From the NCBI GenBank assembly GCA_002840505.1, contig PHBC01000002.1:517544-581543 (forward strand): 64,000 nt of DNA, read 5' to 3'. The first letter of the stretch is position 1. Each line of letters opens with the position of its first letter. The translations under genes were made by a program, and so were the position numbers. The notes below the pieces were generated by a model. That model made no database searches. It had not been told where the DNA came from and was given only the letters and a program-made list of their open reading frames with translations. This document shows positions 1,706-64,000 of the stretch, in pieces. The DNA comes from Deltaproteobacteria bacterium HGW-Deltaproteobacteria-2. GTDB taxonomy: Bacteria; Desulfobacterota; Syntrophia; Syntrophales; Smithellaceae.

Positions 1706-4471
1706 TTAATCAGCGTCGGGAAAAGTAAAAAGAACTGTTCTCTCTGCCTGTTTCTGCGCGGGAGCGTTTTGATCGGCACTGTTTTCCTGATATAAATCCT
1801 TCGGTATTACGGTTTTTATTCGCTTATCACCGTCGGTTTCTTTTTGAACACCTTTTTGTGATAGTGGCGTCTGAACAGAAGGTATTGAAATAGAGGTTTT
1901 TGAAACAACGCATTGAATTTCTCCCAGATCGGTAATAGTTTCTCCTGCCTCGGTAAATGTAACGGTAAACCCGCATTTGCCGCCCTCATAATCCACAGTG
2001 GCGCTATAGGTGCCCGGCAAGATTGTATTTCCACCTGATTTTCTTAGTTTCGCGATAGCGCTGCAACTCTGGTTATTCTGGCTATCGGCAGCATCTGCGT
2101 TCGTTTCTGCGGATAGGCTGTTTTCAATATAAAATTCCCCTCCTTTTCCAGTGGGGTACGACAAATTCTTTTCACCTGTTTTCATGGATATTTCTACAAA
2201 TTCCAGCGGTTCTTTTTTCCCTTCTTTTTGCACAACCAGTGTTCCTGTGAGCGCCCGAACCTGCCGTGCGTCGAAGTAAACGCAGGAACCGCTCCATAAC
2301 GAAGGCGAGATCGACTTGTTCACGTCGGATATACTGTAATCGATCGGAATATTTTTTGTATCGAGCGTGATCTTGTTTTGGCCGTAGGAAGCAAGTGTCG
2401 GCACAACCATTGTACCGGAAGAACTTGCTTTTCCAATCTCCTGACCATTATTGAGCACCGCGGCCCCAGGCACTTCTTTATTAAGCACCACGATGCTGAA
2501 ACTATCGCTGACCGGCCGCGAGAAACCAAAAAATCCTCCGGTATACACAAGCGATCCGGCGGCTGAAAAATTATACGATTCGGTAGTTGTACCGGCGGTG
2601 TTCTGCATGGTGGCATCAACAGAATAGATGCCGTATTTGGCATTATACTGAACATAGGGATTGAACGCGGTTGTTGTATTTGTCGCAGTTTCGGAACGAT
2701 TGAGGGAAGCACGATAGCCGACACCTTCCCCGACGGGTACGTCTTTTTGTATTTGCAGAGTTTCCGAATTAACGTCGCCGCTGCCGGCGCTTGCTTGTGC
2801 GGAACCCCGAATACCCTTACCCAGATCAAAGTTGAGACCGACATAACAACTGTAAGTTGTATTCTTCGTTGTATCGGTGGTTGTATGGGTAACCGAACCG
2901 GTCGCAAAGAGGCTGATTGATTTGTAGAGCGTTCGGGAATAGTTTAGAGAAATGACGCGCGTATCAACACCCTTGAACGTTGCGGACTCCGCGTAATTGA
3001 CAGAAAAACTCCCCAGAGGATTCAGCAGTAAACCCGCTCCCACGTTCATTTCCAGTTGATTGCTGTCAGCCGTTTGCAGGGGATTGCCGACGGTCGCGTA
3101 GTCCCGGGAATATCCACGCAACAGAGCATTCGTGTTGAAACTGCCGAGCTGATAGGAATGCTGGAGTGATACTGCTCCTCCCAAATCGTTGCCGCTTGCG
3201 GAACTTCCGGCAAGAGACATAGTCAACTGGCCCAACTGGGGAATGGCAAATGCCGCGTATAGTCCGCCGTTATAGACACCATCAGAATCTTCTGTCCGCA
3301 CTCCGATATTAAAGTTATTAGTTACGCCGTAGCGATGGAACGCGGAAAAGGCGGCGTTGCCATAATCATCGCTTGCGATTCCATAATTGTTCCGCATTAA
3401 ACCAACATGATAACTGTACTCGTGCAGACCCTGCCGCAGCATTTGAGCACTAAAATACGCCAGATAGGAAATTTTCTGCACATTGCCAAAGGGATCTTTA
3501 AGCAAGACTTCAACATTATGGGAACCGGAGGATGAGTAAATATTTTTTAAATCGAACGACCCGGGCGTAATGGTCTGTTTCCCTATCAGTATGCCGTCCA
3601 GATAGATTTCTGCCTGAGTAGGAAAAATGACCGATCCCCTTAGGTCCATAACCGGCTGGGTTATGAAATAGGGGTCAAGCCTGTAAACCTTCGAAAAACC
3701 GATGCCTCCCATGTTGACGGTACTGCCCAGATCTCCGGAGTTGGCATACTGATCTCCCATTACTAACCACTGGAGATCACCCCGGCGCTCGTAGGTGGCG
3801 CTGCTCTGAAGCCGCGCGAAATTATCGCCGGTTGGTGTTTTCGTATAGACGGAATCGGAAGTAAGAAAAACGTCCCCGGTCCTGAAGCCCACTTTGTTTG
3901 TAACCGCAAAGGACTTAAACCCGTCGGTGTTCGTATAAATATAGTTCAGCCCGTAATTGACAAAGGCGCTCGTCTCCTGCGGATAATAGATATTCTTGGC
4001 CGCCGCCCGAAGTGAAAAAAGATCGGCGGCAGTTTTTCCGGATTCCGTGGTTTTGCCGATGATCGCAACGGTTAGTTTGTTCTCATCGAAAGTGTAAGTA
4101 ACGTCGAGCAGAGCGCTCAGAGGAACGTACTGCTCGTCCCCGCGTATGATGTTGATCCGATCTTCGGCGTATTGCAGTTTCAGGGTTTTTAAATCTTCCA
4201 CCCGGATGAACAACTTTTGCTCATTGTCGAGTTCGACAAAGAAATCTCCCTTTGATTCCGTGTTAACAATGACATTCACAACTATCTGAGTTGTGTCTTT
4301 CTGTGAGGCAGGAACAGCCGCGCCATTTTTGGGCTTCTCCTTATCGGATGTGGCTGTTGTTGAAACAGTAGTTTGATCAACATTTTTTTCATCCGCCGGA
4401 AATGCGGAATTAGTAAAAAAGGAAATAAATAAGATTATCGCAAGGATAAAAAAAAATAAACCTTCGTTCAA
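1706..4471 (-). CDS. Outer-membrane fimbrial usher (PapC/FimD/CsuD-like) of the SCPU chaperone-usher system
   Basis: A large beta-rich ORF (982 aa in the track). The N-terminal segment VIVNTESKGDFFVELDNEQKLFIRVEDLKTLKL and the plug-like AEIYLDGILIGKQTITPGSFDLKNIY resemble usher domains. It lies directly downstream of a PapD-like chaperone and SCPU subunits. The first ~60 codons of the track ORF (to 4654) read through two GC-rich palindromes. An in-frame TTG at 4471 precedes a signal-like NEGLFFFILAIILFISFFTNSAFPA, so the start is placed there; the start remains uncertain. Confidence 0.8.
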   Translation of the reverse strand: MNEGLFFFILAIILFISFFTNSAFPADEKNVDQTTVSTTATSDKEKPKNGAAVPASQKDTTQIVVNVIVNTESKGDFFVELDNEQKLFIRVEDLKTLKLQYAEDRINIIRGDEQYVPLSALLDVTYTFDENKLTVAIIGKTTESGKTAADLFSLRAAAKNIYYPQETSAFVNYGLNYIYTNTDGFKSFAVTNKVGFRTGDVFLTSDSVYTKTPTGDNFARLQSSATYERRGDLQWLVMGDQYANSGDLGSTVNMGGIGFSKVYRLDPYFITQPVMDLRGSVIFPTQAEIYLDGILIGKQTITPGSFDLKNIYSSSGSHNVEVLLKDPFGNVQKISYLAYFSAQMLRQGLHEYSYHVGLMRNNYGIASDDYGNAAFSAFHRYGVTNNFNIGVRTEDSDGVYNGGLYAAFAIPQLGQLTMSLAGSSASGNDLGGAVSLQHSYQLGSFNTNALLRGYSRDYATVGNPLQTADSNQLEMNVGAGLLLNPLGSFSVNYAESATFKGVDTRVISLNYSRTLYKSISLFATGSVTHTTTDTTKNTTYSCYVGLNFDLGKGIRGSAQASAGSGDVNSETLQIQKDVPVGEGVGYRASLNRSETATNTTTAFNPYVQYNAKYGIYSVDATMQNTAGTTTESYNFSAAGSLVYTGGFFGFSRPVSDSFSIVVLNKEVPGAAVLNNGQEIGKASSSGTMVVPTLASYGQNKITLDTKNIPIDYSISDVNKSISPSLWSGSCVYFDARQVRALTGTLVVQKEGKKEPLEFVEISMKTGEKNLSYPTGKGGEFYIENSLSAETNADAADSQNNQSCSAIAKLRKSGGNTILPGTYSATVDYEGGKCGFTVTFTEAGETITDLGEIQCVVSKTSISIPSVQTPLSQKGVQKETDGDKRIKTVIPKDLYQENSADQNAPAQKQAERTVLFTFPDAD

Positions 4472-4486
4472 CGCATTCGAAGGAAG

Positions 4487-4547
4487 TGTCCCCCGCCGGC
4501 GGGGGATCAAGGAGTATGCGCTTTGCGTGTCCCCCGCTGGCGGGGAT
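4487..4547. repeat. Two direct copies of a ~21-bp GC-rich palindromic hairpin element between the chaperone and usher genes
   Basis: GTGTCCCCCGCCGGCGGGGGAT (4487-4508) and GTGTCCCCCGCTGGCGGGGAT (4527-4547). Each contains a near-perfect palindrome (CCCCCGCC/GGCGGGGG). They stand out sharply in AT-rich surroundings. Confidence 0.7.
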
Positions 4548-4657
4548 AGGGGGTGGACGTTAATGTCGCCGTAATTCTCACCCAATTTATGAGTGCAAAG
4601 TCCTTTATCCACCTTCGTCACTGCGCGACACCTCCGCCAGCGGAGGATACGCAAAGA

Positions 4658-5458
4658 TTATTGTGCGCACATGTTTTTCTGAACATTCAGTGTCCCGTTG
4701 ATATTGCTGCTTTCTGTTTGAGCGCTCACCTCGATCGTCGCCAGTTGTCCACATATCTCTTTCGGGACGGCCGCTTCGTACGGAATTGACAGGCCGTTGA
4801 GGATATACCAGCCGGCAACTTCCTTGGTGTACATTTCCTTTCCGGCAGCGGTTTTTCCGCCGAACTTAACGGTGCGCAATTTAATATGAACATTTCCTGT
4901 GTTTTTAACAATCGCCTTCACCGCGCCGTTGGACATTTCGATCTTTTCTAAGACATAGCTCTCCTGTGGCTGTAGAGGCTTAACGAATATCGGCATCGCG
5001 AACCGAAACGCTATCGTGAGCCCTGCCTTTATGTTCTTATTAGCCTCCACGTCAGTTGTCTTTTTCGATGTGGGAATCTCTTCAACGAAAAGGCGATAAG
5101 TCTTTTCCTTGGCGGAGGGTGGGGTCTTGAGGCCTATTCTGACTGCCCGCTGCGAGTTCGCTTCCACGCTCATGATCTTTGGGTGAAAAACTATTTCCTT
5201 CGTGTCCCCATACACATCCTTGCCTTTTTCGTCCTGATTCCACTCTTTAACCGATACTTGAAAATCAACTTTGTCGCCGCCGTTATTGATTACGGAGAAA
5301 ACGCCGCTCTTTACATTGCGGCCCAAGTCCATAGTCGTCGGCTGTACCTGAAAATTAGCGAAGGCAGGAGAAATGAATATGGCCACAAACAACAAACTGG
5401 CAACCAATCCTACGCATTTATTTATTGATGCCTTAAACCCGCGAAAAATGTTCTTCAT
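4658..5458 (-). CDS. Periplasmic fimbrial chaperone (PapD/CsuC-like)
   Basis: 266 aa with a signal peptide (…LLFVAIFISPAFA). It shows the PapD-like pattern FQVQPTTMDLGRNVKSGVFSVINNGGDKVDFQVSV and two beta-sandwich-sized halves. It sits between the pilin genes and the usher. Confidence 0.8.
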   Translation of the reverse strand: MKNIFRGFKASINKCVGLVASLLFVAIFISPAFANFQVQPTTMDLGRNVKSGVFSVINNGGDKVDFQVSVKEWNQDEKGKDVYGDTKEIVFHPKIMSVEANSQRAVRIGLKTPPSAKEKTYRLFVEEIPTSKKTTDVEANKNIKAGLTIAFRFAMPIFVKPLQPQESYVLEKIEMSNGAVKAIVKNTGNVHIKLRTVKFGGKTAAGKEMYTKEVAGWYILNGLSIPYEAAVPKEICGQLATIEVSAQTESSNINGTLNVQKNMCAQ

Positions 5459-5526
5459 GCCTTATCTCCATTTCTTAATTGAAATTTTTTATTCTTCACT
5501 ATTAAAGTTGTATACCAAAAAACCGC

Positions 5527-6552
5527 TTAATAGCTAATCGTTAATGTTATCGTGTCACTATACGTGCCCGCCGGCGCGTCGTTAAGGGCTCCGGCAGGAA
5601 TAGAAGGTGTCAGCGCTAAATTACCAGTTCCACTACCACCTATGCTAATCGTATCGCCCTTACCGGTAATGGGGGTCGTATAGATAATATTATAAGCGAT
5701 ATAATCGCTTGTGCCATGTAAAAGCCTGTACCCCGTACCCATATTTGTTCCGCCATTAGCACCGGCAGCTGTAACAGCATACGTGTTCCCGGCAGCAGTA
5801 CAATAAATGACCGGTTTGGTTGTTACAAGTGCTTCCGAGGCTGCAACTCCTCCGGCATTTGCAACTGCGTTAAGAGTGCCGAAATCTATCACTCCGTTAC
5901 CACCCGTATGGCATCCCCTTGCGGAATTGACCGTGAGACTGTAAGTGGCGGAGGCTTGCGATCCGTTGACATCCGTCACTGTAACCGTAAAACTAAAAGG
6001 TCCTGAAACCTGCGGTATTCCTGTAATCGTAATTGAGGTGCCCGAAGTGCTGCTCAGGTTAAGCCCGGGGGGAAGATTCGTGGCTGTCCAAGAGTACGGG
6101 GTCGTCCCTCTGTCCGCTGTCAAAACAGCAGATGTTGTATATGATTGATACTGAGTCGCATTAGTAGAGAATGTGCCGCTCGTGAGCGTAAGGCGAATGG
6201 CACGATTGATCACAAGGGTGTACGCGCAGGTCGGATCGATGCCGGCCTCGTAATGTCTTATCGAAAGGTTGTAAGTACCCTGTGAGTTTCCAGCCAGCGA
6301 ACCCGACAGATCAACTGAATTAATATAGTTATTATGTAAACTCAGGCCGTTCGGATACCAGCAAAACAAACAGTACCAACCTGGGGTTTGATTCCCGTTG
6401 GTACCAGTAAAGGTGTACAAATAGGGTCTCCCCACTGTACCTTGCGGGAGCGTTCCCGGGCACGTAATTGCAGCATAAGCAGTGCTGATCAGCCCTGTCA
6501 GCAATAATGAAATAATAATATATCCTGCTTTCAGATTCTTACGCTTCATCAA
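5527..6552 (-). CDS. SCPU-domain pilus subunit with two N-terminal Ig-like (He_PIG-type) domains; candidate adhesin
   Basis: 341 aa with a signal peptide. It contains two segments with the 'putative Ig' pattern: LPQGTVGRPYLYTFTGTNG… and TTPYSWTATNLPPGLNLSSTSGTSITITGIPQVSGPFSFTVTVTDVNGSQASATYSLTV. A pilin domain follows, ending GTYSDTITLTISY like the two SCPU subunits upstream. Confidence 0.75.
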   Translation of the reverse strand: MMKRKNLKAGYIIISLLLTGLISTAYAAITCPGTLPQGTVGRPYLYTFTGTNGNQTPGWYCLFCWYPNGLSLHNNYINSVDLSGSLAGNSQGTYNLSIRHYEAGIDPTCAYTLVINRAIRLTLTSGTFSTNATQYQSYTTSAVLTADRGTTPYSWTATNLPPGLNLSSTSGTSITITGIPQVSGPFSFTVTVTDVNGSQASATYSLTVNSARGCHTGGNGVIDFGTLNAVANAGGVAASEALVTTKPVIYCTAAGNTYAVTAAGANGGTNMGTGYRLLHGTSDYIAYNIIYTTPITGKGDTISIGGSGTGNLALTPSIPAGALNDAPAGTYSDTITLTISY

Positions 6553-6566
6553 ATGAATGCCTTAAT

Positions 6567-6616
6567 AAAAAACGCAGCCTTCTGCAATCATCCTTTTTCA
6601 GGCAAACAGGCTGCGT
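6567..6616 (-). terminator. Putative intra-operon attenuator/terminator hairpin after the second SCPU gene
   Basis: An 8-bp GC-rich stem ACGCAGCC (6572-6579) / GGCTGCGT (6609-6616). An A-run at 6567-6571 gives a U-run after the hairpin on the minus-strand transcript. The loop is large (29 nt). Confidence 0.4.
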
Positions 6617-6646
6617 CAACAAATTAAAGAGTTGCCGTTTTTCAAA

Positions 6647-7177
6647 CTAATACGAAAGAGTCAATGTAACCATGTCCGAATAGTCGGTATGGGCAATAGC
6701 GGCCTGTGCGTCTGCCGCCGGAACCTTTATGCTGATACCCATAGCCCGCGCGGTAGTGTATCCCGCACCCGTAAAATGGCCCGTGCCTCCGGTGTCGCCG
6801 GCGCACATAAAGGTGTACGCGATTGCGTCTGCCGGCCAACTTATGGATCTGAGCGCCATTCCGCTGACACCACCGGATGTGCAGGTCTGATTAACGGCGG
6901 TTCCGTTGGCGCTGGACACATTAACCGTAAAGACTACGCCGTTGGTGCACTTCACCAATTCATCGGCAGTCGGTGAAAAGTTCTGATCCGCCGCCGACTG
7001 TGAATCAATAGTTAGCGGATTCGGGAACGAGCCATGCTGGGCCTCCATGCACGATGCTCCTATCTGCGCACTCACCGTCACGGTCGTACTTGCAAATCCC
7101 GAAGGAGTTGCCGCAAACGCACCTGTTGTTATGCTAATGGCAGCAAATGCTGCCACTAGCCATAATATCTTCTTCAA
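6647..7177 (-). CDS. SCPU (spore coat protein U / Csu-type) pilus subunit
   Basis: 176 aa with a signal peptide (…ISITTGAFA). The N-terminal strand is TTVTVSAQIGASCME and the C-terminal strand DYSDMVTLTLSY. This is the same architecture as the neighbouring subunits. Confidence 0.8.
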   Translation of the reverse strand: MKKILWLVAAFAAISITTGAFAATPSGFASTTVTVSAQIGASCMEAQHGSFPNPLTIDSQSAADQNFSPTADELVKCTNGVVFTVNVSSANGTAVNQTCTSGGVSGMALRSISWPADAIAYTFMCAGDTGGTGHFTGAGYTTARAMGISIKVPAADAQAAIAHTDYSDMVTLTLSY

Positions 7178-7227
7178 GGACGATCACCACTCGTTTGATT
7201 AAATTCCCGTTAACAATTGGCCATAAA

Positions 7228-7710
7228 TTAATAGGAAAGCGTTAACACTAAAGTGTCTGAATAGTTTCCTGCTATAACGCCTTCAGCAGCTGAATGAGTA
7301 ACGGTGCCTGTAAGACTTAATAATCCGGTACCCTTGGCACCTATATTAGTACCAGCCGCTCCATCGCCTGTCAGCGGTGTATTATAGTCGATAGAGTACG
7401 GTAGTTTTGTTGTCGTGCCACCATCCATAAATAGATTTTTTCCTGACCCACCATTCAGCCCTCCATCGTTGGTAATCGCAACGCTGGTACCTTTAGTACA
7501 TTGAATCGAGATTCCTCCGGCAGCATCAACAGTTACGTCCACCCCGTCTGCATTGACCGTTCCGAACGGTAATGTCCCGCCATGAACATTACAAATCGAT
7601 GTAACAGTAGCTGTTGCGTTCACGCTAACAGTTGCTTGCGCCGCAAACGCTCCACTTACCATGGCAATAACCATCATCATCGCCGCCAATAGTACTAAAT
7701 ACTTTTTCAT
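7228..7710 (-). CDS. SCPU (spore coat protein U / CsuA/B-type) pilus subunit, probable major subunit
   Basis: 160 aa with an RBS AAGGAGA before the ATG and a signal peptide (…AMVSGAFA). It has ATVSVNATATVTSICNV … GNYSDTLVLTLSY. It is the first gene of the operon. Confidence 0.8.
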   Translation of the reverse strand: MKKYLVLLAAMMMVIAMVSGAFAAQATVSVNATATVTSICNVHGGTLPFGTVNADGVDVTVDAAGGISIQCTKGTSVAITNDGGLNGGSGKNLFMDGGTTTKLPYSIDYNTPLTGDGAAGTNIGAKGTGLLSLTGTVTHSAAEGVIAGNYSDTLVLTLSY

Positions 7711-7879
7711 AATTTTCTCCTTTTGTTTGAGTAAATATTATTTTTAATAAATCAAAGTTTTTACAATAATTTAGTCCTGCAGGGTAAACCAAGCACAGGG
7801 ATTTCCCGACAGGGTGGATGCTTTGAGCTTCATTCATCCTAAAACTTCATACTTTTTTGTTACAAATTTTGGCGTTCTG

Positions 7880-7913
7880 AGAACGTACCGGACTGCACAG
7901 AAAACGTACTGGA
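7880..7913. promoter_or_regulatory. Two 13-bp direct repeats upstream of the chaperone-usher operon (candidate regulator binding sites)
   Basis: AGAACGTACCGGA (7880-7892) and AAAACGTACTGGA (7901-7913) share 11/13 identity and their starts are 21 bp apart. The first overlaps the palindrome GTTCT-G-AGAAC (7875-7885). The sites lie ~170-200 bp upstream of the first SCPU gene. Confidence 0.3.
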
Positions 7914-8104
7914 TTAGACAATTGGCACTCGTGTAGTAAAAAAGATCAACTTTGTCAAGCAAAAAGAAGAAGTGTTCATGATGGTTTTTATCAATATTTT
8001 TAATTATTTATGTGAAATTAATTTCACTTTTATTATAGATACAATCAAAGGCTAAAAAATGGCATCAATTAAAGATGAAAATGTTCTCTTATTTAAAGCT
8101 GATA

Positions 8105-8593
8105 TTATGTCAGGTAGGTTTGAAGTGTTTTATAACTCTTAAAATCAGCATCAACGAAGGCGGCTCCGACATGAATGCCGTCTTCTTCATCAAACACTCT
8201 ATTGGACTCACAGGTCAACTTTATGGGCTTGTTCTCAACAGGCAAATTGAAAACAACCTCAAATCTTGAGTTTTGCTCATCAATACGGATATGTTGCTTG
8301 AAATCCTTGGGAATTAAAATTCTTACACCGCCAAGAGAAATATTTGTGATGGTTACTATTCCCATTTTTTCAAGCTCCGGTTGATTAATCACGGCTGAAA
8401 CAAAAAGATCCTTTCTCGGATAATGACGTTTTTCTTTTTCAACACTTGGAAATGCTTTCCTCTCTTTCAGGTAACTGTTCAGGACATTTTCAATCGTTGA
8501 AGATAATGACCGCCTGTCTTCTTTTGCAACTCGAGCCAGGGCTTTATGCAAAGCCTTGCTGGCACGAAAACATATGAGGCTTTCTTTTTTCAT
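8105..8593 (-). CDS. Ribbon-helix-helix (CopG/Arc-like) :: PilZ domain fusion protein; predicted c-di-GMP-responsive DNA-binding protein
   Basis: 162 aa. The N-terminus, SLICFRASKALHKALARVAKEDRRSLSSTIENVLNSYL, fits a beta-strand plus two helices of the RHH fold. The C-terminal half carries both PilZ c-di-GMP motifs: RxxxR (RHYPR) and D/NxSxxG (NISLGG). Confidence 0.8.
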   Translation of the reverse strand: MKKESLICFRASKALHKALARVAKEDRRSLSSTIENVLNSYLKERKAFPSVEKEKRHYPRKDLFVSAVINQPELEKMGIVTITNISLGGVRILIPKDFKQHIRIDEQNSRFEVVFNLPVENKPIKLTCESNRVFDEEDGIHVGAAFVDADFKSYKTLQTYLT

Positions 8594-8706: not shown

Positions 8707-9831
8707 CTACTCCACAGGGTTTACGGAAATGGAAAGAGGCCACGCATAAGTTCCCGCCTGCGAAGACTCGTCAAAAACAAAACGATAGTTTAACGCTACT
8801 ACGGACGTGCCAACGATTTGACGAGTGATAATCCCGCCGTTGGGCCCGAGCGCAACTTCCCTGCCAAAACCATTCACTAGCGCTTCTTTAAAAGGCAATC
8901 CGTGAGTTTCGAAGGTCATATTAACTCCCGCCCTGCTGTTATTTTTGATTTCCAGAAGAGAACCAACATTTACATCGAGATATCCTCTTTTTATATCGGC
9001 ATCGGTTACAACGATTTCCGCCTGTTGTCTTAGCACATGCACGCTGGCCCGCGCCAGAACTCTCGCGGTCACCGATATCTGCGTACTCATCACCTGCTTA
9101 GATGACTGCGCGGCAATCGCTGCACTAATAGGCGCAAGAGACAGGGCCGCGATCAACGCCGCCGCAACAAGCTTTTCCTGTATCCTGAGGCCATGATCGA
9201 TATGGCGCTGTTTGGCATAGCCGGCTTCAACCAGCACTTCGCCGATTTTCTTTCCGCTTTCGCTTTCGTGCTGACGTTTCAGTCCGTCTTCAAGCTGTTC
9301 ATGTGTGATGTATCCGGCGGAAATAAGCAGTTCTCCCAGCATCAGACAGGAAGGAATCTTTCTTTCGCCCAGCCGGGATTGAAAGGACAAAGTGACATCT
9401 AGTTGACGCTTATCGAGGAAACCAAGGCGCACTAAAATCTCGCCCAGTTTTTCGCCTGATTTTTTCTGTTCATCAAGCGCAGTATCGAGCTGATTCTGCG
9501 TGATGCAGAAAGCCTTCAACAGCAGTTCACCCAACAAGTGACGAATGCCGGCGGCCGCCATAATCGCTTCTTTGACCGTCGAAAAATCACGCTGAATCCA
9601 CAGTACAGCATAAAGCTCAGCTTTATCCAACGCGCCAAGATCAACCAGGATATCACCCAAGAGCTTATTTGTGCGCATTTGCTCCGCAAGAGCGGCATCA
9701 AGAGCTTCAGGCTCTATAAACGCGCCATCCAGCAGAATACGTCCCAGCGGACGCTTGACAGGCAGAGAATAACGGATATTTTCCTGCAATTTCTGCTTTT
9801 CTACACCTTTGTACTTTTTTGTAACCACCAC
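8707..9831 (-). CDS. Membrane protein with three tandem MshEN-like (T2SSE_N) c-di-GMP-binding motif pairs, one TM helix and a periplasmic beta-rich domain
   Basis: 374 aa with a GTG start preceded by AAGGGGG. It has six ~24-aa LGxxLVxxGxxxxxxLxxxLxxQ motifs in three pairs. A TM helix (LVAAALIAALSLAPISAAIAA) and a ~135-aa beta-rich C-terminal domain follow. There is no ATPase domain. Confidence 0.65.
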   Translation of the reverse strand: MVVTKKYKGVEKQKLQENIRYSLPVKRPLGRILLDGAFIEPEALDAALAEQMRTNKLLGDILVDLGALDKAELYAVLWIQRDFSTVKEAIMAAAGIRHLLGELLLKAFCITQNQLDTALDEQKKSGEKLGEILVRLGFLDKRQLDVTLSFQSRLGERKIPSCLMLGELLISAGYITHEQLEDGLKRQHESESGKKIGEVLVEAGYAKQRHIDHGLRIQEKLVAAALIAALSLAPISAAIAAQSSKQVMSTQISVTARVLARASVHVLRQQAEIVVTDADIKRGYLDVNVGSLLEIKNNSRAGVNMTFETHGLPFKEALVNGFGREVALGPNGGIITRQIVGTSVVALNYRFVFDESSQAGTYAWPLSISVNPVE

Positions 9832-10407
9832 ATCGCCCCCTTTGGCTGCGATTAGTTCTGTATATCTTTACTTCTTTTTTCGATGCCATGATAAAACTAC
9901 ACTTTCAGTTTGTCAAGCATATTTTTTATAGTGTATCAATTTGTATAACAATTATCGTTTAATATCATGAATTACATAACATGTTGATTTACATTATGAA
10001 TACATTAAATTTCTAGAACTTAACATTAAGAGTAAAAAAGATATTTTTTTATAAATGAAGTAAACTGTATTACATTTCGATACAATATCGATAAAGAAAT
10101 CAATTACCATTAATCCATTTTGCTGCATCTTGAACCGAGTTTTGGTCAAACTTTACGCGGAAACGGACAAACGATCTTCAGACTGTAAAGTCCGCTTGGA
10201 AAAAGTCCTTATCATTACAACCAGTAAAATTGTAGCCAAGGATAATTTCTTAAAAGACGTGCAAATTAGACTTCCTTTTTTCATCCAAGAAGTGTATAAG
10301 TCTGAACGTTTGCACTATTTTTAGGGTACAGGACACTGTAATAAGAAGCCTGTAGCGCACAAATCAGAAGATTTAAATTACTTTCTTTGGGAAGAATAAA
10401 AGATTAC

Positions 10408-12449: not shown

Positions 12450-12555
12450 GAAAGCTTGATAAAGGCAAACCGTTCTGAAAAGACGGGACGCAAAGTTACT
12501 GACCTAAGTCTTAATTGTAAGATAGGGTGGCAGAACAGCCGGGCGACTCTAATAA
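12450..12555 (+). promoter_or_regulatory. c-di-GMP-I (GEMM-I) riboswitch
   Basis: …AAAGGCAAACCGUUCUGAAAAGACGGGACGCAAAGUUACUGACCUAAGUC…GAUAGGGUGGCAGAACAGCCGGGCGACU. It matches the GEMM-I core seen in V. cholerae Vc2 (GGCAAACC-hairpin with GAAA tetraloop-GGGACGCAAAG). The second hairpin carries a tetraloop-receptor-like CCUAAG…AUAGG. The element lies ~135 nt upstream of the first minor pilin gene. Confidence 0.85.
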
Positions 12556-12688: not shown

Positions 12689-13159
12689 ATGATAAGGACA
12701 AACATTCCAAAAGGTTATACGCTAGTTGAAGTCTGCATCGTAATCGCCTTGCTGGCCATCATATCGACTTTGGCTATTCCTGCCTGGCAGAACTATTCGT
12801 CCAACATCAATTTAAAAACAGCCGCAAGAGAAGTAATGTCTGATCTTCTCAACGCAAGGCAGCGGGCAATTGAAGAGAATCTCAGTACTTACCGTATCAC
12901 TTTTAATGTGGGTGAAAACAATTATACCCTTTCACGTACCGACACCGGAATTACATACTGGACAAAACCATTAACATCTTACGGAAGTGGCATTTCCATA
13001 CAGAGCGTCAACTTTAATAACGGTTCCGTAGTTAGTTTTCAAAGACGTGGAACAGTAACAATGGGAAACTTGGTCCTGACAAACCTAATAGGATCAAAGG
13101 CTACCATTACTGTCCAAATAACAGCGAGAACGTATGTACAGTATAATATGCAAAAATAA
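12689..13159 (+). CDS. Type IV minor pilin, GspH/FimT-like (prepilin N-terminal methylation domain)
   Basis: MIRTNIPKG/YTLVEVCIVIALLAIISTLAIPAW shows a class III signal peptide with Glu at +5 and a hydrophobic alpha1-N helix. An RBS GAGGGGA lies upstream. Confidence 0.75.
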   Translation: MIRTNIPKGYTLVEVCIVIALLAIISTLAIPAWQNYSSNINLKTAAREVMSDLLNARQRAIEENLSTYRITFNVGENNYTLSRTDTGITYWTKPLTSYGSGISIQSVNFNNGSVVSFQRRGTVTMGNLVLTNLIGSKATITVQITARTYVQYNMQK

Positions 13160-13574
13160 TAAGGGAATATCACTGGTTGAATCAATCATTTCCGTCCTGC
13201 TCGTTTCCATAGGACTGATTGCTTTCATGTCTCTGCAACCAACTTCTTGGAAAACCAGCGCTCGTACCGATTATCTCGGACGAGCAATTATGGTACTCAA
13301 TAATGAGATTATGACCCAGGAACTTTGGATCATGAACCCCTGCAATACCGTAACGACGGGAACGGTCGATAAAGTTTTATATTCCAGCGACCAGCAAACG
13401 GCTCAGTCGGGCGATGTAAGTTTTAATGTTCAAACGGTTACAAGTGCCGTTTCCGGCAGTGCAAATACATGGAAAGTTACAGTAACGGTAACTTGGCCGC
13501 CTTTGAGTACACGGGGCATTACAGATAATATGATAGTCACCAGACAGGAATCTTTTCGTTTTGGATGTATATGA
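13134..13574 (+). CDS. pilV: Type IV minor pilin, PilV-like
   Basis: …NNKG/ISLVESIISVLLVSIGLIAFMSLQ is a prepilin motif. Size and position after the FimT-like gene fit PilV. Confidence 0.65.
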   Translation: MYSIICKNNKGISLVESIISVLLVSIGLIAFMSLQPTSWKTSARTDYLGRAIMVLNNEIMTQELWIMNPCNTVTTGTVDKVLYSSDQQTAQSGDVSFNVQTVTSAVSGSANTWKVTVTVTWPPLSTRGITDNMIVTRQESFRFGCI

Positions 13575-14263
13575 AAAATCATAAAGGCTATACATTAGTG
13601 GAAGTTTTAATTGCGCTTGCTTTGGGTGTTATAATCCTCTCCGCCATTTATTCATTGGTAAACATGGGGCAGAAGTCTACCTACAATATTGAGAGAAGAG
13701 TGGCGGCTCATCAGGATGTCCGTACCGCTCTGGAAATGATGTCCATGGAAATTCAGATGGCCTCTTACAATCCAAGACCCGACTATGAAGGCAGTAACTT
13801 CTGGGTATCTTCCGGGAGCTGCACTGCTTCCACTAATCAGATATATAAAGGTATTCAGACAGCGACAGATTCTTCCATCACCATCGAGATGAATCTCGAC
13901 GGAAGCGCCAGTATAGGCGATTCTATCAATGAGGTAATCAACTATACTTACGATTCTAACAACCAATACATCAGCCGTTCGACGAATTGTACAGGAGGTA
14001 ATCAGCCTTTTTTAGGAGATGTACCGGGCAATCTCCGGGCGGTTCGCGTAATTAATACCAGTGCAGTCCCGGTTTTCCGTTACTTTAATGCACTGGGAGC
14101 CGAAATAGCAGCCTCGTCATTACCGGCAGGAATTCCGAACGTTGCCAGAATAGACATTACTCTATGGGTAGAGACGGAAAATGCCGATTTGAATACAGGA
14201 CAAAGAAAAAAGTCATTTTATTCTACAAGTATAATTCCGAGGAACCATGTTATCATTAAATAA
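13565..14263 (+). CDS. pilW: Type IV minor pilin, PilW-like
   Basis: MKNHKG/YTLVEVLIALALGVIILSAIYSLV is a prepilin motif. The ~230-aa size and gene order fit PilW. Confidence 0.65.
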   Translation: MYMKNHKGYTLVEVLIALALGVIILSAIYSLVNMGQKSTYNIERRVAAHQDVRTALEMMSMEIQMASYNPRPDYEGSNFWVSSGSCTASTNQIYKGIQTATDSSITIEMNLDGSASIGDSINEVINYTYDSNNQYISRSTNCTGGNQPFLGDVPGNLRAVRVINTSAVPVFRYFNALGAEIAASSLPAGIPNVARIDITLWVETENADLNTGQRKKSFYSTSIIPRNHVIIK

Positions 14264-14732
14264 AATAAAAGACGTTTTAAATACGAAACATCAAGGTGGT
14301 TTTTCTCTAGTTGTAGCACTTCTTGCTATCTTGATCCTTATGGGATTAGGTTTTCTGGCCATTTCCGTCACGACAAATGATCTTCAGATTACCACCAGAA
14401 TCGTCGGAGAAAAGAAGGCATTGATTGCGGCTGAAGCAGGCATTAACATGCTTTCACATAGTTTCGCACCGGATACTTCATCTAGTGTAAGCGGACATGT
14501 GGTTGATTCCTCCGACCCGGCGTCAATTTATTCGATCAGTAATGCGACTCGTCCGACTTCTGGCGCTGATACACTGCCATTAAAAGGCTACGCAATTGGA
14601 GGAGGCCAGCAATGGGGACAGATGCTTTTTAATGTCCGGGTAACTGGTGAAAACACCTATTATGGAAGCCAGGTACAAATAGATGTGGGAATGGGCTACG
14701 GCCCTGTTGAGATAACCACCATGTTTAGATAA
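14247..14732 (+). CDS. pilX: PilX-like minor pilin / pilus assembly protein
   Basis: …HQGG/FSLVVALLAILILMGLGFLAISVTTNDLQITTR resembles the PilX N-terminal domain pattern. The gene precedes pilY1. Confidence 0.6.
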   Translation: MLSLNKIKDVLNTKHQGGFSLVVALLAILILMGLGFLAISVTTNDLQITTRIVGEKKALIAAEAGINMLSHSFAPDTSSSVSGHVVDSSDPASIYSISNATRPTSGADTLPLKGYAIGGGQQWGQMLFNVRVTGENTYYGSQVQIDVGMGYGPVEITTMFR

Positions 14733-17700: not shown

Positions 17701-17824
17701 TCTCTATGTAACTACCAGCGGCGGTGGCGGCATAGACGGTCAGACTCAACGTGCCAATATAACTCCCCAAAGCCTGGTGAATAGGACAAACGTTCTTTTC
17801 TGGAGAGACACACGTATAGAATAG
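14744..17824 (+). CDS. pilY1: PilY1-like type IV pilus tip adhesin with N-terminal von Willebrand A domain
   Basis: 1026 aa with a signal peptide. It has a vWA MIDAS motif LLILDLSGSM (DxSxS). The C-terminal beta-propeller-like region carries the PilY1-type Ca-binding loop DIDNDGFIDTAYLGDTGGNMWRF. It is the last gene of the minor-pilin operon. Confidence 0.85.
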   Translation: MLIKKIITILFIIVLCLYVNISHADDTDEMALFTSSLSPDTLLILDLSGSMEWNPEGGTNIWGNSSCSGTFYSSPTTGYTTNCSRLAIAKRAIFGILDDNGDNSLTAADETSLGVRIGYMRFYNGNDTAGDYLTGYNRLSKAIGVTYRRIYCNSSSSCSINSVCRTCSCGSTCAEYSPCVNSECAYGGTPLAASLNEAKLYLDVHKTADGASGACRQKFAIVITDGADTYACSGNGTETQADMYKRRRESVAKAKALADAGYRLFVIGFGKSMPDYLENTLHWMAYFGGTDNPLIANTGSTSAYVPSAVTSCGASETTGTCDGSSTNCFANSNDPGNTALSGYAFIATDGDQIATQLKLAFSIIREANYSFSQASVQLNRTVDENYIYEGTIQPISNDPFWYGHLRKYTINTDGSRGSELWDAGTVLMNTSDSVRNMKTYKTVSGAGTIIDFTTSNLTNADLAVTTDDLRSKVVGFFRGESAYNLESWKLGDIFRSKPITVGTPSSFFEDVRDTNHAFATHRTNHKRATNDPVLGYTGRVVLVGANDGQLHSFKTSDGTEAWSFIPPNLLSRLKMIAHNTHPTTLTHQSYVDGPVSVADAWVPETANSGTAKSASDWQTILLFGEGQGAGTNLWSTSTNCDAGFNQTYSTTYPYYCGYHCLNVTNPLVPTYCGPTGSTTTKWLRLGLSSSQTYIGAPWSSPMIGRVMVNGNEKWVAFIGGGFSSPGAANSGKGIFVFDLVNGNLLWSYTKADNSDLDNPMPATPSIVDIDNDGFIDTAYLGDTGGNMWRFKFCRATSGTSCGTSNWTGGRFFQANSSSGIRPIFTTASVAKDGVGNIWVYWGTGDKLDPTSPNAQEKFYALKDTDFTSTRTISDMQNITDEGGTYSGSAYGYYINLTGQGEKILAEPTVFGGVVYFTSYVPASSNDPCAQGGTAKLWGINYTTGAGALNIIGSTPSTTLPRSMTIGTGIASAPVVSMRPGTDATPDLYVTTSGGGGIDGQTQRANITPQSLVNRTNVLFWRDTRIE

Positions 17825-49158: not shown

Positions 49159-49170
49159 AAATCAGATTTT

Positions 49171-49271: not shown

Positions 49272-49296
49272 ATAACATTACCCGAGGTTGACACGT

Positions 49297-63503: not shown

Positions 63504-63515
63504 TCATGTTTTAAA

Positions 63516-63630
<115 letters not shown>

Positions 63631-63729: not shown

Positions 63730-64000
<271 letters not shown>

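What the first reader, a model, noticed from the sequence alone, without database searches (positions are those of the whole stretch)
8105..8593. Ribbon-helix-helix::PilZ fusion directly upstream of the chaperone-usher operon (a MrkH-like logic with a different DNA-binding module)
**Seen in sequence**
- The 162-aa protein starts with an RHH-like beta-alpha-alpha segment (SLICFRASKALHKALARVAKEDRRSLSSTIENVLNSYL).
- It ends in a PilZ domain with both canonical c-di-GMP motifs intact: RHYPR (RxxxR) and NISLGG (D/NxSxxG).
- It lies between the MshEN-motif protein and the SCPU operon on the same strand.

**Established knowledge**
- PilZ domains bind c-di-GMP through these two motifs.
- Klebsiella MrkH is a PilZ-domain, c-di-GMP-dependent transcriptional activator of the mrk chaperone-usher fimbrial operon.

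**Inference**
- This RHH-PilZ protein is a c-di-GMP-gated repressor or activator of the adjacent SCPU pilus genes. It would be an independent evolutionary solution to the same regulatory problem.
- The tandem 13-bp repeats at 7880-7913 are candidate operators. RHH dimers typically bind tandem or inverted repeats.
Basis: partly seen in the sequence, partly recalled or inferred. Interest (0 to 1): 0.65.

Follow-up and report, generated by a model that had tools for sequence, protein, structure and literature searches.

The report
RHH–PilZ c-di-GMP regulator beside pili
This small gene really does fuse an Arc-like DNA-binding domain to a c-di-GMP-sensing PilZ domain, a combination found in none of the papers searched; most close relatives (about 55-76% identical) sit in the PEP-CTERM surface-protein regulon, and only a derived side branch, including this copy, sits in front of a chaperone-usher pilus operon.

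Summary
The 162-aa ORF at 8105-8593 (-) has an N-terminal Arc/Mnt-type ribbon-helix-helix (residues 1-45), a short linker carrying RxxxR (R56-R60), and a canonical PilZ barrel (54-161) with NxSxxG (N84-G89). Both motifs are invariant across homologues.

It belongs to an unannotated family: 210 clusters at 50% identity with E<=1e-10, every named member from Syntrophales.

The MrkH-like interpretation is only partly supported. In most close relatives the gene is not next to pili. It lies in a ~1.1-kb cassette of the PEP-CTERM/exosortase regulon: PEP-CTERM box, sigma-54 promoter, RHH-PilZ, boxes, sigma-54 promoter, PEP-CTERM gene. Genomes carry 2-6 copies.

The window copy belongs to a derived sub-lineage (window, L041/L113, L051, L015). 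There the gene is captured behind a triple-MshEN membrane protein and in front of an SCPU/PapD/usher operon, and boxes and sigma-54 promoters are lost.

The 13-bp repeats are conserved in all SCPU-linked leaders, just downstream of an invariant CTTGACA, but their spacing varies (21, 28, 82 bp).

Most likely it is a c-di-GMP-gated transcription factor for neighbouring surface-structure promoters. Target, sign and operator are unproven.

The parts
8105..8593 (-). RHH-PilZ gene (162 aa)
   Evidence: ORF. Pfam PilZ and RHH-clan hits. 269 homologues.
8459..8593 (-). Arc/Mnt-type ribbon-helix-helix domain (residues 1-45). The beta-strand is SLICFRA; the helices are 13-25 and 30-44.
   Evidence: AlphaFold2 secondary structure. 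RHH-clan Pfam hits in 20/32 members. PDB profile hits to AvtR, ORF56, Mnt, CopG and Arc.
8414..8428 (-). RxxxR c-di-GMP motif (R56-H-Y-P-R60) in the flexible inter-domain linker
   Evidence: R56, P59 and R60 are invariant. R56 and R60 are invariant at 27-54% identity. The linker has pLDDT <50.
8327..8344 (-). D/NxSxxG c-di-GMP motif (N84-I-S-L-G-G89)
   Evidence: S86 and G89 are invariant. G89 is invariant and S86 nearly so in distant members.
8111..8434 (-). PilZ beta-barrel plus C-terminal helix (residues 54-161)
   Evidence: Pfam PF07238 at E=5.4e-9. Foldseek matches to PilZ structures.
8707..9831 (-). Upstream gene of the probable two-gene operon: a 374-aa protein with three MshE-type c-di-GMP-binding domains plus a C-terminal region
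   Evidence: NF053729 at 150.6 bits in 3 stretches. The gap to RHH-PilZ is 113 bp here and 7-9 bp in L041 and L015. No terminator was found on this strand.
9888..9916 (-). Sigma-70-type promoter TTGACA-17-TATCAT, probably driving the MshEN-like/RHH-PilZ operon
   Evidence: 11 of 12 consensus matches. Conserved in L041.
9941..9951 (-). Palindromic TTGTTATACAA about 25 bp upstream of the -35 element; a candidate autoregulatory site
   Evidence: It contains one of three TGTWWWACA matches in the whole window, and a second lies close by in the same intergenic region. The same element sits at the same place in L041, L051 and L015. The motif is enriched about 25-fold in family cassettes.
7711..8104 (-). 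Intergenic promoter/leader region of the SCPU operon
   Evidence: The proximal ~200 bp (7711-7913) is about 87.5% identical to L041, against 71-79% for the SCPU genes. The distal part cannot be aligned.
7950..7959 (-). Invariant CTTGACA(AAG), a -35-like element 40-45 bp upstream of the repeats
   Evidence: Invariant in five SCPU-linked leaders. The -10 region is weak and variable (sequence reading).
7879..7920 (-). Two tandem 21-nt units, each starting CC[AG]GTACGTT[CT]TC; candidate operator or promoter-proximal element
   Evidence: GTACGTTT is invariant across SCPU-linked loci. Spacing is 21, 28 or 82 bp.
7855..7866 (-). TTTGTAACAAAA. It is positionally equivalent to the palindrome TTGTAATTACAA in L015, so it may be a decayed half of the TTGTA..TACAA element.
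   Evidence: TTGTA is invariant in alignment A5. L015 has two perfect TTGTAATTACAA copies.
8012..8027 (-). Perfect palindrome GTGAAAT-TA-ATTTCAC; probably a site for a different regulator
   Evidence: Present in L015 and L047, absent from L041, L051 and L113.
1706..7710 (-). SCPU chaperone-usher operon: SCPU proteins at 7228-7710, 6647-7177 and 5527-6552; PapD chaperone at 4658-5458; usher at 1706-4654
   Evidence: Pfam SCPU, He_PIG, PapD_N and Usher. Synteny with L015 and L041.

Best explanation
**What the protein is.** The gene encodes a homodimeric Arc/Mnt-type ribbon-helix-helix DNA-binding protein. Each chain carries a C-terminal PilZ c-di-GMP receptor. The RxxxR half of the binding site lies in the ~12-residue linker immediately after RHH helix 2.

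**Proposed mechanism.**
- In this genome it is probably made from a sigma-70 promoter as the second gene of an operon with a triple-MshEN membrane protein.
- I propose that it binds promoter or leader DNA next to itself. Candidate sites are the leader of the SCPU chaperone-usher operon (the CC[AG]GTACGTT pair and/or the TTGTA element just downstream of CTTGACA) and the TTGTTATACAA site upstream of its own operon.
- I propose that c-di-GMP docks the PilZ barrels against the linker and so changes DNA affinity or oligomeric state. Pilus expression would then follow the c-di-GMP level.
- The candidate sites in the SCPU leader lie at or downstream of the likely start site, and classic RHH proteins are repressors. 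I therefore lean, about 55:45, towards a repressor that c-di-GMP releases rather than a MrkH-like activator.

**Evolution.** The copy is a re-deployed member of a family whose usual home is the PrsR/sigma-54 PEP-CTERM regulon.

**Shown:**
- the domain architecture;
- conservation of the motifs;
- the synteny;
- the conserved cis-elements;
- the family context.

**Inferred:**
- DNA binding;
- c-di-GMP binding;
- the target;
- the sign of regulation.
For: **Architecture**
- PilZ scores above the Pfam threshold and the PilZ fold is recovered.
- RHH is supported by clan-wide Pfam hits and by PDB profile hits.
- Both c-di-GMP motifs are invariant.

**Selection**
- The gene is the most conserved in its neighbourhood: 87.6% DNA identity to L041.

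**Co-oriented upstream position in front of exported surface-protein genes**
- SCPU pili follow the gene in the window, L041-44, L051, L113 and L015.
- PEP-CTERM proteins follow it in about 14 of 27 PEP-box loci.

**Constraint on the leader**
- The proximal 200 bp is as conserved as the regulator gene and more conserved than the pilin genes.
- CTTGACA, GTACGTTT and TTGTA are invariant in five diverged leaders.
- The leader shows no significant RNA folding (z=-0.26) and matches no Rfam family. This favours protein-binding DNA over a riboswitch.

**TGTWWWACA/TTGTA..TACAA elements**
- There are 25 copies in 16 of 18 non-redundant cassettes, against 1.0 +/- 1.05 in shuffles.
- They are absent from three PEP-CTERM promoters that lack an adjacent RHH-PilZ gene.
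- Similar elements (TTGTAGTTTACAA, TTTGTAATG) lie downstream of a distant clade in an unrelated context.

**Neighbourhood**
- The locus is saturated with c-di-GMP sensors: MshEN x3 and a c-di-GMP-I riboswitch.

**Established knowledge, not tested here**
- PilZ binds c-di-GMP through RxxxR and D/NxSxxG.
- RHH proteins such as Arc, Mnt, CopG, MetJ and NikR are DNA-binding dimers, some controlled by ligands acting on or next to the RHH.
- MrkH shows that a PilZ protein can be a transcription factor for chaperone-usher fimbriae.
Against: - There is no direct evidence for DNA or ligand binding.
- The structure model is a monomer, and the N-terminal strand is unstructured in it.
- Identical or nearly identical paralogues precede different cargo genes in one genome. 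Specificity for the adjacent gene therefore cannot come from the protein alone.
- In PEP-box cassettes the dominant conserved cis-elements are the PEP-CTERM box, attributed to PrsR (PMC1569441), and sigma-54 promoters. Adjacency there could simply reflect membership of that regulon.
- TGTWWWACA is absent from the window's SCPU leader and from the downstream regions of distant clades.
- The 13-bp repeats vary in spacing (21/28/82 bp) and are not found outside SCPU-linked loci.
- The RHH beta-strand is nearly invariant across sub-families. One would therefore expect a shared operator.
- A different palindrome (8012-8027) suggests that another regulator acts on the SCPU promoter.
- Distant family members sit in non-surface contexts.
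Confidence: 0.5

Rival explanations
1. It is a c-di-GMP-gated RHH transcription factor, but the adjacent SCPU operon is not its main target. It would autoregulate its own (MshEN-like/RHH-PilZ) operon, or act on a dispersed regulon inherited from the PEP-CTERM system. The SCPU promoter would be controlled by other factors, for example whatever binds the GTGAAAT-TA-ATTTCAC palindrome.
For: - The best family-wide candidate operator (TGTWWWACA) occurs in this window only upstream of the operon's own promoter, at 9941-9951 and 10066-10074, and not in the SCPU leader.
- Multi-copy identical paralogues imply shared, non-local specificity.
- In PEP-box loci the gene itself has a PEP-CTERM box and a sigma-54 promoter, so it behaves as a regulon member.
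- A separate palindrome lies upstream of the SCPU promoter.
Against: - The RHH-PilZ to SCPU order and orientation are conserved in at least four diverged lineages.
- L041, L051 and L113 do carry TTGTTATACAA-type sites between RHH-PilZ and SCPU.
- TTGTA is invariant in the SCPU leaders.
Confidence: 0.22
2. It is not a transcription factor. The RHH serves only as a dimerisation module. The PilZ domains would act as a c-di-GMP-dependent protein adaptor, for example towards the co-transcribed MshEN membrane protein, the pilus assembly machinery or, in PEP-box loci, PrsR/sigma-54.
For: - Most characterised PilZ proteins act through protein-protein contacts: YcgR, MotI, MapZ, Alg44 and BcsA are the top structural matches.
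- The gene is tightly coupled to the MshEN-like gene, with a 7-9 bp gap in L041 and L015.
- No operator could be defined unambiguously.
Against: - The residues that align with Arc's DNA-reading strand include an Arg at position 10 that is invariant among close homologues and kept in most distant ones. The N-cap of helix 2 (R-S-L-S-S), which contacts the DNA backbone in RHH proteins, is strongly conserved.
- That pattern is what DNA binding predicts; dimerisation alone does not require it.
- The MshEN-like partner is absent from PEP-box loci.
Confidence: 0.13
3. It is a nucleoid-associated or low-specificity DNA-binding protein whose DNA binding is antagonised by c-di-GMP, like Myxococcus CdbA. 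It would have no dedicated promoter target.
For: [quoted passage not shown]
- Only one clearly base-reading residue (R10) is conserved on the strand.
- Genomes carry several gene copies, which is consistent with a need for dosage.
Against: - In PEP-box loci the gene is under tight sigma-54 control, which is unlike a housekeeping NAP.
- It has strong positional linkage to particular promoters.
- CdbA has no PilZ domain.
Confidence: 0.06

Closest known systems
MrkH (Klebsiella pneumoniae), the PilZ-domain c-di-GMP-dependent activator of the mrk type 3 (chaperone-usher) fimbrial operon
   Same: - It has a C-terminal canonical PilZ domain with RxxxR at the inter-domain linker.
- Structural matches to MrkH are 5kec at 7.5e-4 and 5kgo at 1.6e-3.
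- Its gene lies next to a chaperone-usher pilus operon.
- The proposed logic is the same: c-di-GMP, then a PilZ transcription factor, then pili.
   Different: - MrkH has no classical DNA-binding domain. Its N-terminal half is a degenerate PilZ-like barrel (PilZN2; bioRxiv 10.1101/814665).
- Here the N-terminus is an Arc-type RHH.
- There is no sequence relationship outside the PilZ domain.
- The pili are SCPU-type, not Mrk.
- The sign of regulation is unknown. The family is mainly associated with PEP-CTERM genes, not pili.
CdbA (Myxococcus xanthus), an RHH protein that binds c-di-GMP
   Same: An RHH DNA-binding protein whose activity is linked to c-di-GMP. It comes from the former Deltaproteobacteria (PMC7156744).
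   Different: - CdbA binds c-di-GMP without a PilZ domain and acts as an essential nucleoid-associated protein.
- The PilZ protein CdbS is a separate polypeptide (PMC10313047).
- Here the RHH and PilZ domains are fused in one chain and the gene is linked to surface-structure loci.
Ligand-controlled RHH repressors (NikR, MetJ) and plain Arc/Mnt/CopG repressors
   Same: - The N-terminal beta-alpha-alpha module aligns with Arc and Mnt: VAEENGRSVNSEI in Arc against VAKEDRRSLSSTI here. Profile hits are Mnt 2.7e-3, CopG 0.02 and Arc 0.19.
- The architecture, an RHH followed by a C-terminal ligand-binding domain, is that of NikR (my own knowledge).
   Different: The sensor domain is PilZ and the ligand is a second messenger, not a metal or metabolite. 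Neither oligomeric state nor operator has been determined.
PrsR/PrsK/PrsT PEP-CTERM regulatory system and its PEP-CTERM box (Haft et al. 2006, PMC1569441)
   Same: - Most close family members (about 55-76% identity) carry the 17-nt box ending in TTTACA, plus a sigma-54 promoter, both upstream of the RHH-PilZ gene and between it and a PEP-CTERM gene.
- PrsR (TIGR02915, 642 bits) and PrsT (TIGR02917, 413 bits) are neighbours.
   Different: - RHH-PilZ was not part of the described system.
- The spacing from box to promoter (~116-130 nt) is longer than the published 63 +/- 11 nt.
- The window copy has lost both the box and the sigma-54 promoter.

Membership tests
PilZ domain (PF07238), canonical c-di-GMP-binding type | Sequence match above the curated Pfam threshold | tested here: met
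   36.8 bits against a cutoff of 22.5, residues 54-161, E=5.4e-9. All 32 members tested match.
PilZ domain (PF07238), canonical c-di-GMP-binding type | RxxxR motif in the N-terminal loop | tested here: met
   R56-H-Y-P-R60. R56 and R60 are invariant in A1 and A3.
PilZ domain (PF07238), canonical c-di-GMP-binding type | D/NxSxxG motif on the barrel | tested here: met
   N84-I-S-L-G-G89. S86 and G89 are invariant in A1, and G89 is invariant in A3.
PilZ domain (PF07238), canonical c-di-GMP-binding type | Six-stranded beta-barrel plus a C-terminal helix | tested here: met
   AlphaFold2 strands span 61-146 and a helix spans 151-161. Foldseek gives probability 1.00 to MotI, MapZ, Alg44, BcsA, YcgR and MrkH.
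PilZ domain (PF07238), canonical c-di-GMP-binding type | Actual binding of c-di-GMP | not testable with these tools
   Needs ITC, DRaCALA or MST with the purified protein and an R56A/R60A control.
Ribbon-helix-helix (MetJ/Arc) superfamily | Sequence-profile similarity to RHH families | tested here: met
   - Family members hit Arc (20/32), HicB (16), RHH_5 (14, best 1.3e-5), RHH_1, RHH_7 and CcdA.
- The N-terminal profile hits AvtR at 3.7e-6, ORF56 at 3.6e-4 and Mnt at 2.7e-3.
- The window protein on its own is sub-threshold.
Ribbon-helix-helix (MetJ/Arc) superfamily | Beta-strand, helix, helix topology of ~45 residues | tested here: inconclusive
   The two helices (13-25 and 30-44) are predicted with pLDDT 81-89. 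The N-terminal strand (residues 5-11) is not formed in the monomer model, which is expected because the RHH sheet is intermolecular.
Ribbon-helix-helix (MetJ/Arc) superfamily | Obligate dimer that inserts an antiparallel sheet into the major groove; sequence-specific DNA binding | not testable with these tools
   No multimer prediction was available. Needs SEC-MALS, EMSA or footprinting.
MrkH-type PilZ transcription factors | [quoted passage not shown] | tested here: not met
   The N-terminus is a 45-residue RHH, not a barrel. The protein is not a member; the analogy is functional only.
MrkH-type PilZ transcription factors | c-di-GMP-dependent activation of an adjacent chaperone-usher fimbrial promoter | not testable with these tools
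   Only adjacency and conserved leader elements were shown.
PEP-CTERM-box (PrsR/sigma-54) regulon member | A 17-nt box ending in TTTACA, followed by a GG-N10-GC sigma-54 promoter, upstream of the gene | tested here: not met
   - **Window copy:** the best box PWM score is 9.9 bits, against 28-33 in L001. No sigma-54 promoter lies in either intergenic region; TGGTATAAACGTGCA has GG-N9-GC.
- **Related loci:** the feature is met in 21 (box) and 24 (promoter) of about 26 PEP-box loci.
CdbA-type c-di-GMP-binding RHH nucleoid protein | Stand-alone RHH that binds c-di-GMP directly, without a PilZ domain | tested here: not met
   The protein has a complete PilZ domain. It was not compared with the CdbA sequence itself.

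The most novel reading that the evidence does not exclude
- RHH-PilZ would be the first PilZ receptor wired directly to a classical DNA-binding domain.
- It would form a minimal, one-polypeptide c-di-GMP switch that acts as a checkpoint inside the PrsR/sigma-54 PEP-CTERM (exosortase) regulon of syntrophic Syntrophales.
- The regulator and its target promoter would travel together as a ~1.1-kb cassette that has been copied in front of different surface-protein genes.
- In the window's lineage the cassette was re-wired, with a promoter-class switch from sigma-54 to sigma-70, to control SCPU chaperone-usher pili together with a triple-MshEN membrane receptor.
Probability: 0.35. Interest if true: 0.72.

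Novelty: new variant of a known kind. Interest (0 to 1): 0.6.

Why it matters
**A new output type for PilZ.** Very few PilZ proteins are known to control transcription (MrkH, possibly PlzA). None uses a standard DNA-binding fold. A 162-residue RHH-PilZ protein would be the simplest c-di-GMP-responsive transcription factor yet. It should be easy to test in vitro and to crystallise, and could serve as a compact biosensor part.

**A link between two systems.** The family context connects c-di-GMP signalling to the PEP-CTERM/exosortase system for the first time. The signals that control that system have been unclear since 2006.

**Relevance to syntrophy.** It points to how Smithella and Syntrophus, key syntrophs in methanogenic consortia, may decide when to make pili and matrix proteins for aggregation.

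**A case of regulatory evolution.** The locus also shows a regulator-plus-promoter cassette being duplicated and then moved from sigma-54 to sigma-70 control.

Tried and rejected
1. **Riboswitch or structured 5' UTR in 7711-7925.** Rejected as the main explanation.
   - There is no Rfam hit even at E<=5.
   - The folding z-score is -0.26.
   - The GGATG..CATCC hairpin is broken without compensation in L113.
2. **The 17-bp box GTCGGAATTCTTTACAA as the RHH-PilZ operator.** Rejected.
   - It is the published PEP-CTERM box, attributed to PrsR.
   - It occurs at PEP-CTERM genes that have no RHH-PilZ neighbour.
   - It is absent from the window.
3. **The 13-bp repeats as a sigma-54 promoter.** The first unit plus TGCA resembles a -24/-12 element, but the gap is 12 nt rather than 10. 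In L041 and L113 it is longer still. Rejected as a functional sigma-54 promoter. It may be a relic of one.
4. **A k-mer search for an element shared by SCPU-type and PEP-type intergenic regions.**
   - It gave only TTGTAA-type words: 71 shared 9-mers against 8-46 in shuffles.
   - The result is suggestive, but it is confounded by AT-richness and by the reverse complement of the box.
5. **Phylogenetic covariation between the RHH strand and DNA motifs.** Not possible, because the strand is almost invariant.
6. **A second homology search with a diverse profile.** It returned essentially the same Syntrophales proteins and no new taxonomy.
7. **A metagenome scan with the most diverse alignment.** It failed for lack of a conserved stretch and was repeated with a narrower alignment.
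8. **Toxin-antitoxin reading of the RHH.** No toxin-like partner gene was seen in any of the contexts inspected; PADLOC and PHROGs were not searched.
Full report
**1. The observation**

The ORF at 8105-8593 on the minus strand encodes 162 residues.

PilZ evidence:
- Pfam places a PilZ domain at residues 54-161 (E=5.4e-9, 36.8 bits, cutoff 22.5).
- In 32 homologues, R56, P59, R60, S86 and G89 are invariant. In members only 27-54% identical, R56, R60 and G89 are still invariant and S86 is nearly so.
- An AlphaFold2 model (pLDDT 76.9) has two helices (13-25, 30-44), a low-confidence linker (50-57), then a beta-barrel and a C-terminal helix.
- Foldseek returns only PilZ structures among its top-scoring matches. 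MotI, MapZ, Alg44, BcsA and YcgR lead, and MrkH scores 7.5e-4.

RHH evidence:
- The N-terminal assignment is weak for the window protein alone but solid at family level.
- Of 32 members, 20 hit Arc, 16 HicB, 14 RHH_5 (best 1.3e-5), and others hit RHH_1, RHH_7 and CcdA.
- A profile of the first 50 residues finds mainly RHH proteins in PDB, including all hits below E=0.5: AvtR 3.7e-6, ORF56 3.6e-4, a designed RHH, Mnt 2.7e-3, CopG, MazE7 and Arc.
- By eye the segment aligns residue for residue with Arc. This puts L6, C8 and R10 on the DNA-reading face. The conserved R-S-L-S-S then falls at the N-cap of helix 2.

Position and repeats:
- The gene sits between a 374-aa protein with three MshE-type c-di-GMP domains (NF053729, 150.6 bits) and three SCPU genes, a PapD chaperone and an usher. 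All are on the same strand.
- The 13-bp repeats are real: 7879-7891 and 7900-7912, forming 21-nt tandem units.

**2. The family and its usual home**

Size and taxonomy:
- The protein has 269 detectable homologues in the 90%-clustered collection. Nearly all are 160-164 aa, and the 120 best are 64-88% identical. Those with names come from Smithella, Syntrophus, other Syntrophales and Desulfobacterium N47.
- An exhaustive profile search of 50%-identity representatives finds 443 clusters at E<=1e-3 and 210 at E<=1e-10. Most cover both domains.
- No NCBIfam model matches the protein.
- Searches of the held literature found no paper describing an RHH-PilZ fusion, including the main PilZ review.

Context in species-representative genomes (40 loci):
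- Only L015 (Smithella sp. SDB_sulfate1) shares the SCPU/chaperone/usher, MshEN-like and radical-SAM neighbours of the window.
- Several genomes hold 2-3 copies. One fragmented MAG has at least six contig ends inside the gene.
- Copies within one genome share a ~0.7-1.1-kb DNA unit at 90-100% identity. It runs from about -195 to about +930 relative to the start codon.

The cassette elements:
- The unit starts at a 17-bp box, GTCGGAATTCTTTACAA. The box is found at -192 +/- 5 in 21 loci and again, in the same orientation, 2-3 times at ~100-bp intervals after the stop codon.
- GG-N10-GC sigma-54 promoters lie ~60 bp upstream of the RHH-PilZ start in 24 loci, and again in front of the downstream gene.
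- The box is the 'motif 1' of Haft et al. 2006: 17 nt ending in TTTACA, followed by a sigma-54 promoter. They predicted it to be the site of the enhancer-binding response regulator PrsR (PMC1569441).

Consistent with this:
- The first downstream gene ends in a PEP-CTERM sorting signal in about 14 of 27 loci (TIGR02595 above cutoff).
- PrsT (413 bits) and PrsR (642 bits) are neighbours in L001 and L002.

The usual setting among the closer relatives (about 55-76% identical to the window protein) is therefore a cassette: box, sigma-54 promoter, RHH-PilZ, boxes, sigma-54 promoter, PEP-CTERM gene.

In a metagenome sample of 80 further loci:
- about 20 are of the PEP-box type;
- 2 are SCPU-linked;
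- the rest, 34-58% identical to the window protein, have other contexts. One clade has a conserved ~132-aa downstream partner.

**3. The window's sub-lineage**

Synteny:
- The closest relatives share the window's synteny: P0003 at 83% (loci L041-44), L113 at 87%, L051 at 78%, and the more distant L015 at 66%.
- The shared order is: minor pilins/PilY1 in the opposite orientation; radical SAM in the opposite orientation; MshEN-like; RHH-PilZ; SCPU x3; chaperone; usher.
- In a neighbour-joining tree these four form one long-branched clade nested inside the PEP-box group. There is no bootstrap, and long-branch attraction is possible.

Lost elements:
- The SCPU-linked loci examined have neither a PEP-CTERM box nor a sigma-54 promoter in either intergenic region.

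Relics of the cassette remain:
- The 15-nt TATAAGGAAAGCAAT just before the window's start codon matches the PEP-box cassettes' 5' region.
- The region upstream of the MshEN-like gene (9941-10087) is homologous to the 'terminal unit' upstream of PEP-CTERM genes. It contains a degenerate box at 10065-10081 and TTGTTATACAA at 9941-9951.
- That region ends in a strong sigma-70 promoter (TTGACA-17-TATCAT, 9888-9916) where PEP-box loci have TGGTACG-N4-TTGCT.

Operon structure:
- The gap between the MshEN-like gene and RHH-PilZ is 113 bp here but only 7-9 bp in L041 and L015.
- No terminator was found on that strand. A two-gene operon is likely.

**4. The SCPU leader**

Conservation between the window and L041:
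- The proximal ~200 bp of the 394-bp intergenic region is 87.5% identical. This equals the RHH-PilZ gene (87.6%).
- It is higher than the MshEN-like gene (81%) and the SCPU, chaperone and usher genes (71-79%).
- The distal part, and the first pilin gene beyond its signal peptide, cannot be aligned.

Across five diverged leaders the invariant blocks are (L113):
- CTTGACA;
- 40-45 bp further on, T-C-C-[AGC]-GTACGTTT;
- a second CCGG[TC]A;
- TTGTA.

Other properties:
- The spacing of the two GTACG units is 21 bp in the window, L047 and L051. It is 28 bp in L041 and L113, and 82 bp in L015.
- The leader has no Rfam match and no excess folding energy (z=-0.26). One hairpin is broken without compensation in L113. 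I therefore read it as protein-binding DNA, not a riboswitch.
- A perfect palindrome, GTGAAAT-TA-ATTTCAC (8012-8027), is shared only with L015 and L047.
- In L047 the whole ~260-bp module is tandemly duplicated.

**5. Looking for the operator**

The RHH strand is almost invariant, so the operator should be shared across sub-families.

The best candidate is TGTWWWACA, which appears as TTGTAATACA(A/T)TG or TTGTTATACAA:
- 25 copies occur in 16 of 18 non-redundant PEP-box cassettes, against 1.0 +/- 1.05 in dinucleotide shuffles.
- 43 of 61 copies in 598 kb of loci lie within -700 to +1300 of an RHH-PilZ start.
- In PEP-box cassettes the motif typically abuts the -24 element of the downstream sigma-54 promoter.
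- It is missing from three PEP-CTERM promoters that have no adjacent RHH-PilZ gene.

In SCPU-linked loci:
- It lies ~25 bp upstream of the -35 element of the MshEN-like/RHH-PilZ promoter in the window, L041, L051 and L015.
- It also lies between RHH-PilZ and SCPU in L041, L051 and L113.
- L015 instead has two perfect TTGTAATTACAA palindromes in the leader.
- The window leader has only TTTGTAACAAAA at the homologous position (7855-7866).

A distant clade in an unrelated context shows TTGTAGTTTACAA or TTTGTAATG between RHH-PilZ and its partner gene.

This pattern is suggestive but not decisive:
- The sequences are related by descent.
- The motif is AT-rich.
- It is absent from the downstream regions of most distant clades.

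**6. Mechanism**

What is shown:
- a conserved two-domain protein with all the sequence hallmarks of a DNA-binding RHH and a ligand-competent PilZ;
- strong purifying selection;
- a fixed, co-oriented position in front of exported surface-protein genes in two sub-families;
- conserved non-coding elements around it.

What I infer:
- The RHH dimer binds promoter-proximal DNA.
- c-di-GMP binding alters that binding. The RxxxR arm is the linker that emerges directly from RHH helix 2. Ligand binding must therefore re-position the two barrels relative to the DNA-binding sheet, as the C-terminal domains of NikR do.
- In the window the likely targets are the SCPU leader and/or the operon's own promoter.
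- The sign of regulation is open. I lean slightly towards a repressor that c-di-GMP relieves. Two things point that way: the candidate sites lie at or after the -35 and start region, and the RHH precedent.
- In PEP-box loci this would create an AND gate between the PrsK/PrsR signal and c-di-GMP.

The main rivals:
- It is a transcription factor whose real target is its own operon or a dispersed regulon.
- It is a non-DNA-binding adaptor.
- It is a CdbA-like nucleoid protein.

**7. Comparison and novelty**

- It works like MrkH only in outline and is not a member of that family. The defining PilZN2 domain is absent.
- It resembles CdbA in being an RHH linked to c-di-GMP, but CdbA lacks a PilZ domain.
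- Both domains are ordinary. The fusion, the family, its embedding in the PEP-CTERM regulon and its re-deployment to SCPU pili are not described in the papers searched.
- I rate it a new variant of a known kind, with interest about 0.6. A c-di-GMP specialist would want to test it. Nothing here overturns current ideas, and the function remains inferred.

Noticed in passing
window 12454-12543 (+): A c-di-GMP-I riboswitch (RF01051, 64.5 bits, E=5e-10) lies immediately upstream of type IV minor-pilin-like genes (12689-14732) and a PilY1 homologue (14744-17824). L015 has the same arrangement. Together with the MshEN x3 protein and RHH-PilZ, three different c-di-GMP sensor types lie within ~5 kb, between two pilus systems.
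   Followed up: partly
window 8707-9831 (-): A 374-aa protein carries six copies of the MshEN 24-residue motif, making three MshE-type domains (NF053729, 150.6 bits). These are followed by a hydrophobic segment and a C-terminal domain of unknown function. It is found only in the SCPU-linked loci and is probably co-transcribed with RHH-PilZ.
   Followed up: partly
window 8012-8027: A perfect 16-bp palindrome, GTGAAAT-TA-ATTTCAC, lies ~55 bp upstream of the CTTGACA element of the SCPU leader. It is conserved in L015 and L047. L041, L051 and L113 have TTGTTATACAA-type elements in its place. It may be the site of another (CRP/FNR-like?) regulator.
   Followed up: no
window 9888-10087 (-): The promoter region of the MshEN-like gene is homologous to the region upstream of PEP-CTERM genes, with a degenerate PEP-CTERM box at 10065-10081 and TTGTTATACAA at 9941-9951. 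It carries a sigma-70 promoter where relatives carry a sigma-54 promoter, an apparent switch of promoter class.
   Followed up: partly
L001/L002, L005/L006/L007, L012/L013, L003/L004; JBEKRZ contigs L011, L032, L033, L037, L038, L040: The [box, sigma-54 promoter, RHH-PilZ, boxes, sigma-54 promoter] cassette is present in 2-6 nearly identical copies per genome. Examples are 98% identity over 1128 bp and 100% over 1061 bp. It breaks short-read assemblies inside the gene. The left repeat boundary coincides with the upstream box; the right boundary reaches the downstream sigma-54 promoter in the longest pair (L001/L002).
   Followed up: partly
L047 3490-4146 (same protein as the window, GCA_017973855.1): The ~260-bp SCPU promoter/leader module (palindrome, CTTGACA, GTACG repeats, hairpin) is tandemly duplicated across an N-gap. 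This may be strain-level variation in copy number or a scaffolding artefact.
   Followed up: no
window 7228-7640 vs L041 7250-7679: The first SCPU subunit cannot be aligned at the DNA level with its L041 counterpart beyond the signal peptide, although the leader just upstream is 87.5% identical. It looks like a hypervariable major pilin.
   Followed up: no
L041 6790-6920; L051 2040-2150 and 3090-3200; L024 and L028 intergenic regions: A ~110-bp MITE-like element (…GTCATTCCCGCGAAGGCGGGAATCCAG…CTGGATACCGGCCTTCGCCGGTATGACG…) recurs in intergenic regions of several Smithella-type genomes, including inside the RHH-PilZ/SCPU spacer.
   Followed up: no
L056-L063, L068, L071, L073, L077, L083 (metagenome loci): A distant RHH-PilZ clade (52-58% identity) has a conserved 129-137-aa partner gene of unknown function ~120 bp downstream (MKRKKS…ENVVDLKGIMDQKK…). 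In the loci inspected (L056, L063, L073), methylmalonyl-CoA-mutase-like, B12-binding or MeaB-like genes lie upstream. There is no PEP-CTERM box.
   Followed up: no
window 63515-64000 (-) and 49169-49273 (+): The 5S rRNA and the 3' end of the 23S rRNA lie at the window edge. There is also a PyrR binding-site match (58.2 bits).
   Followed up: no
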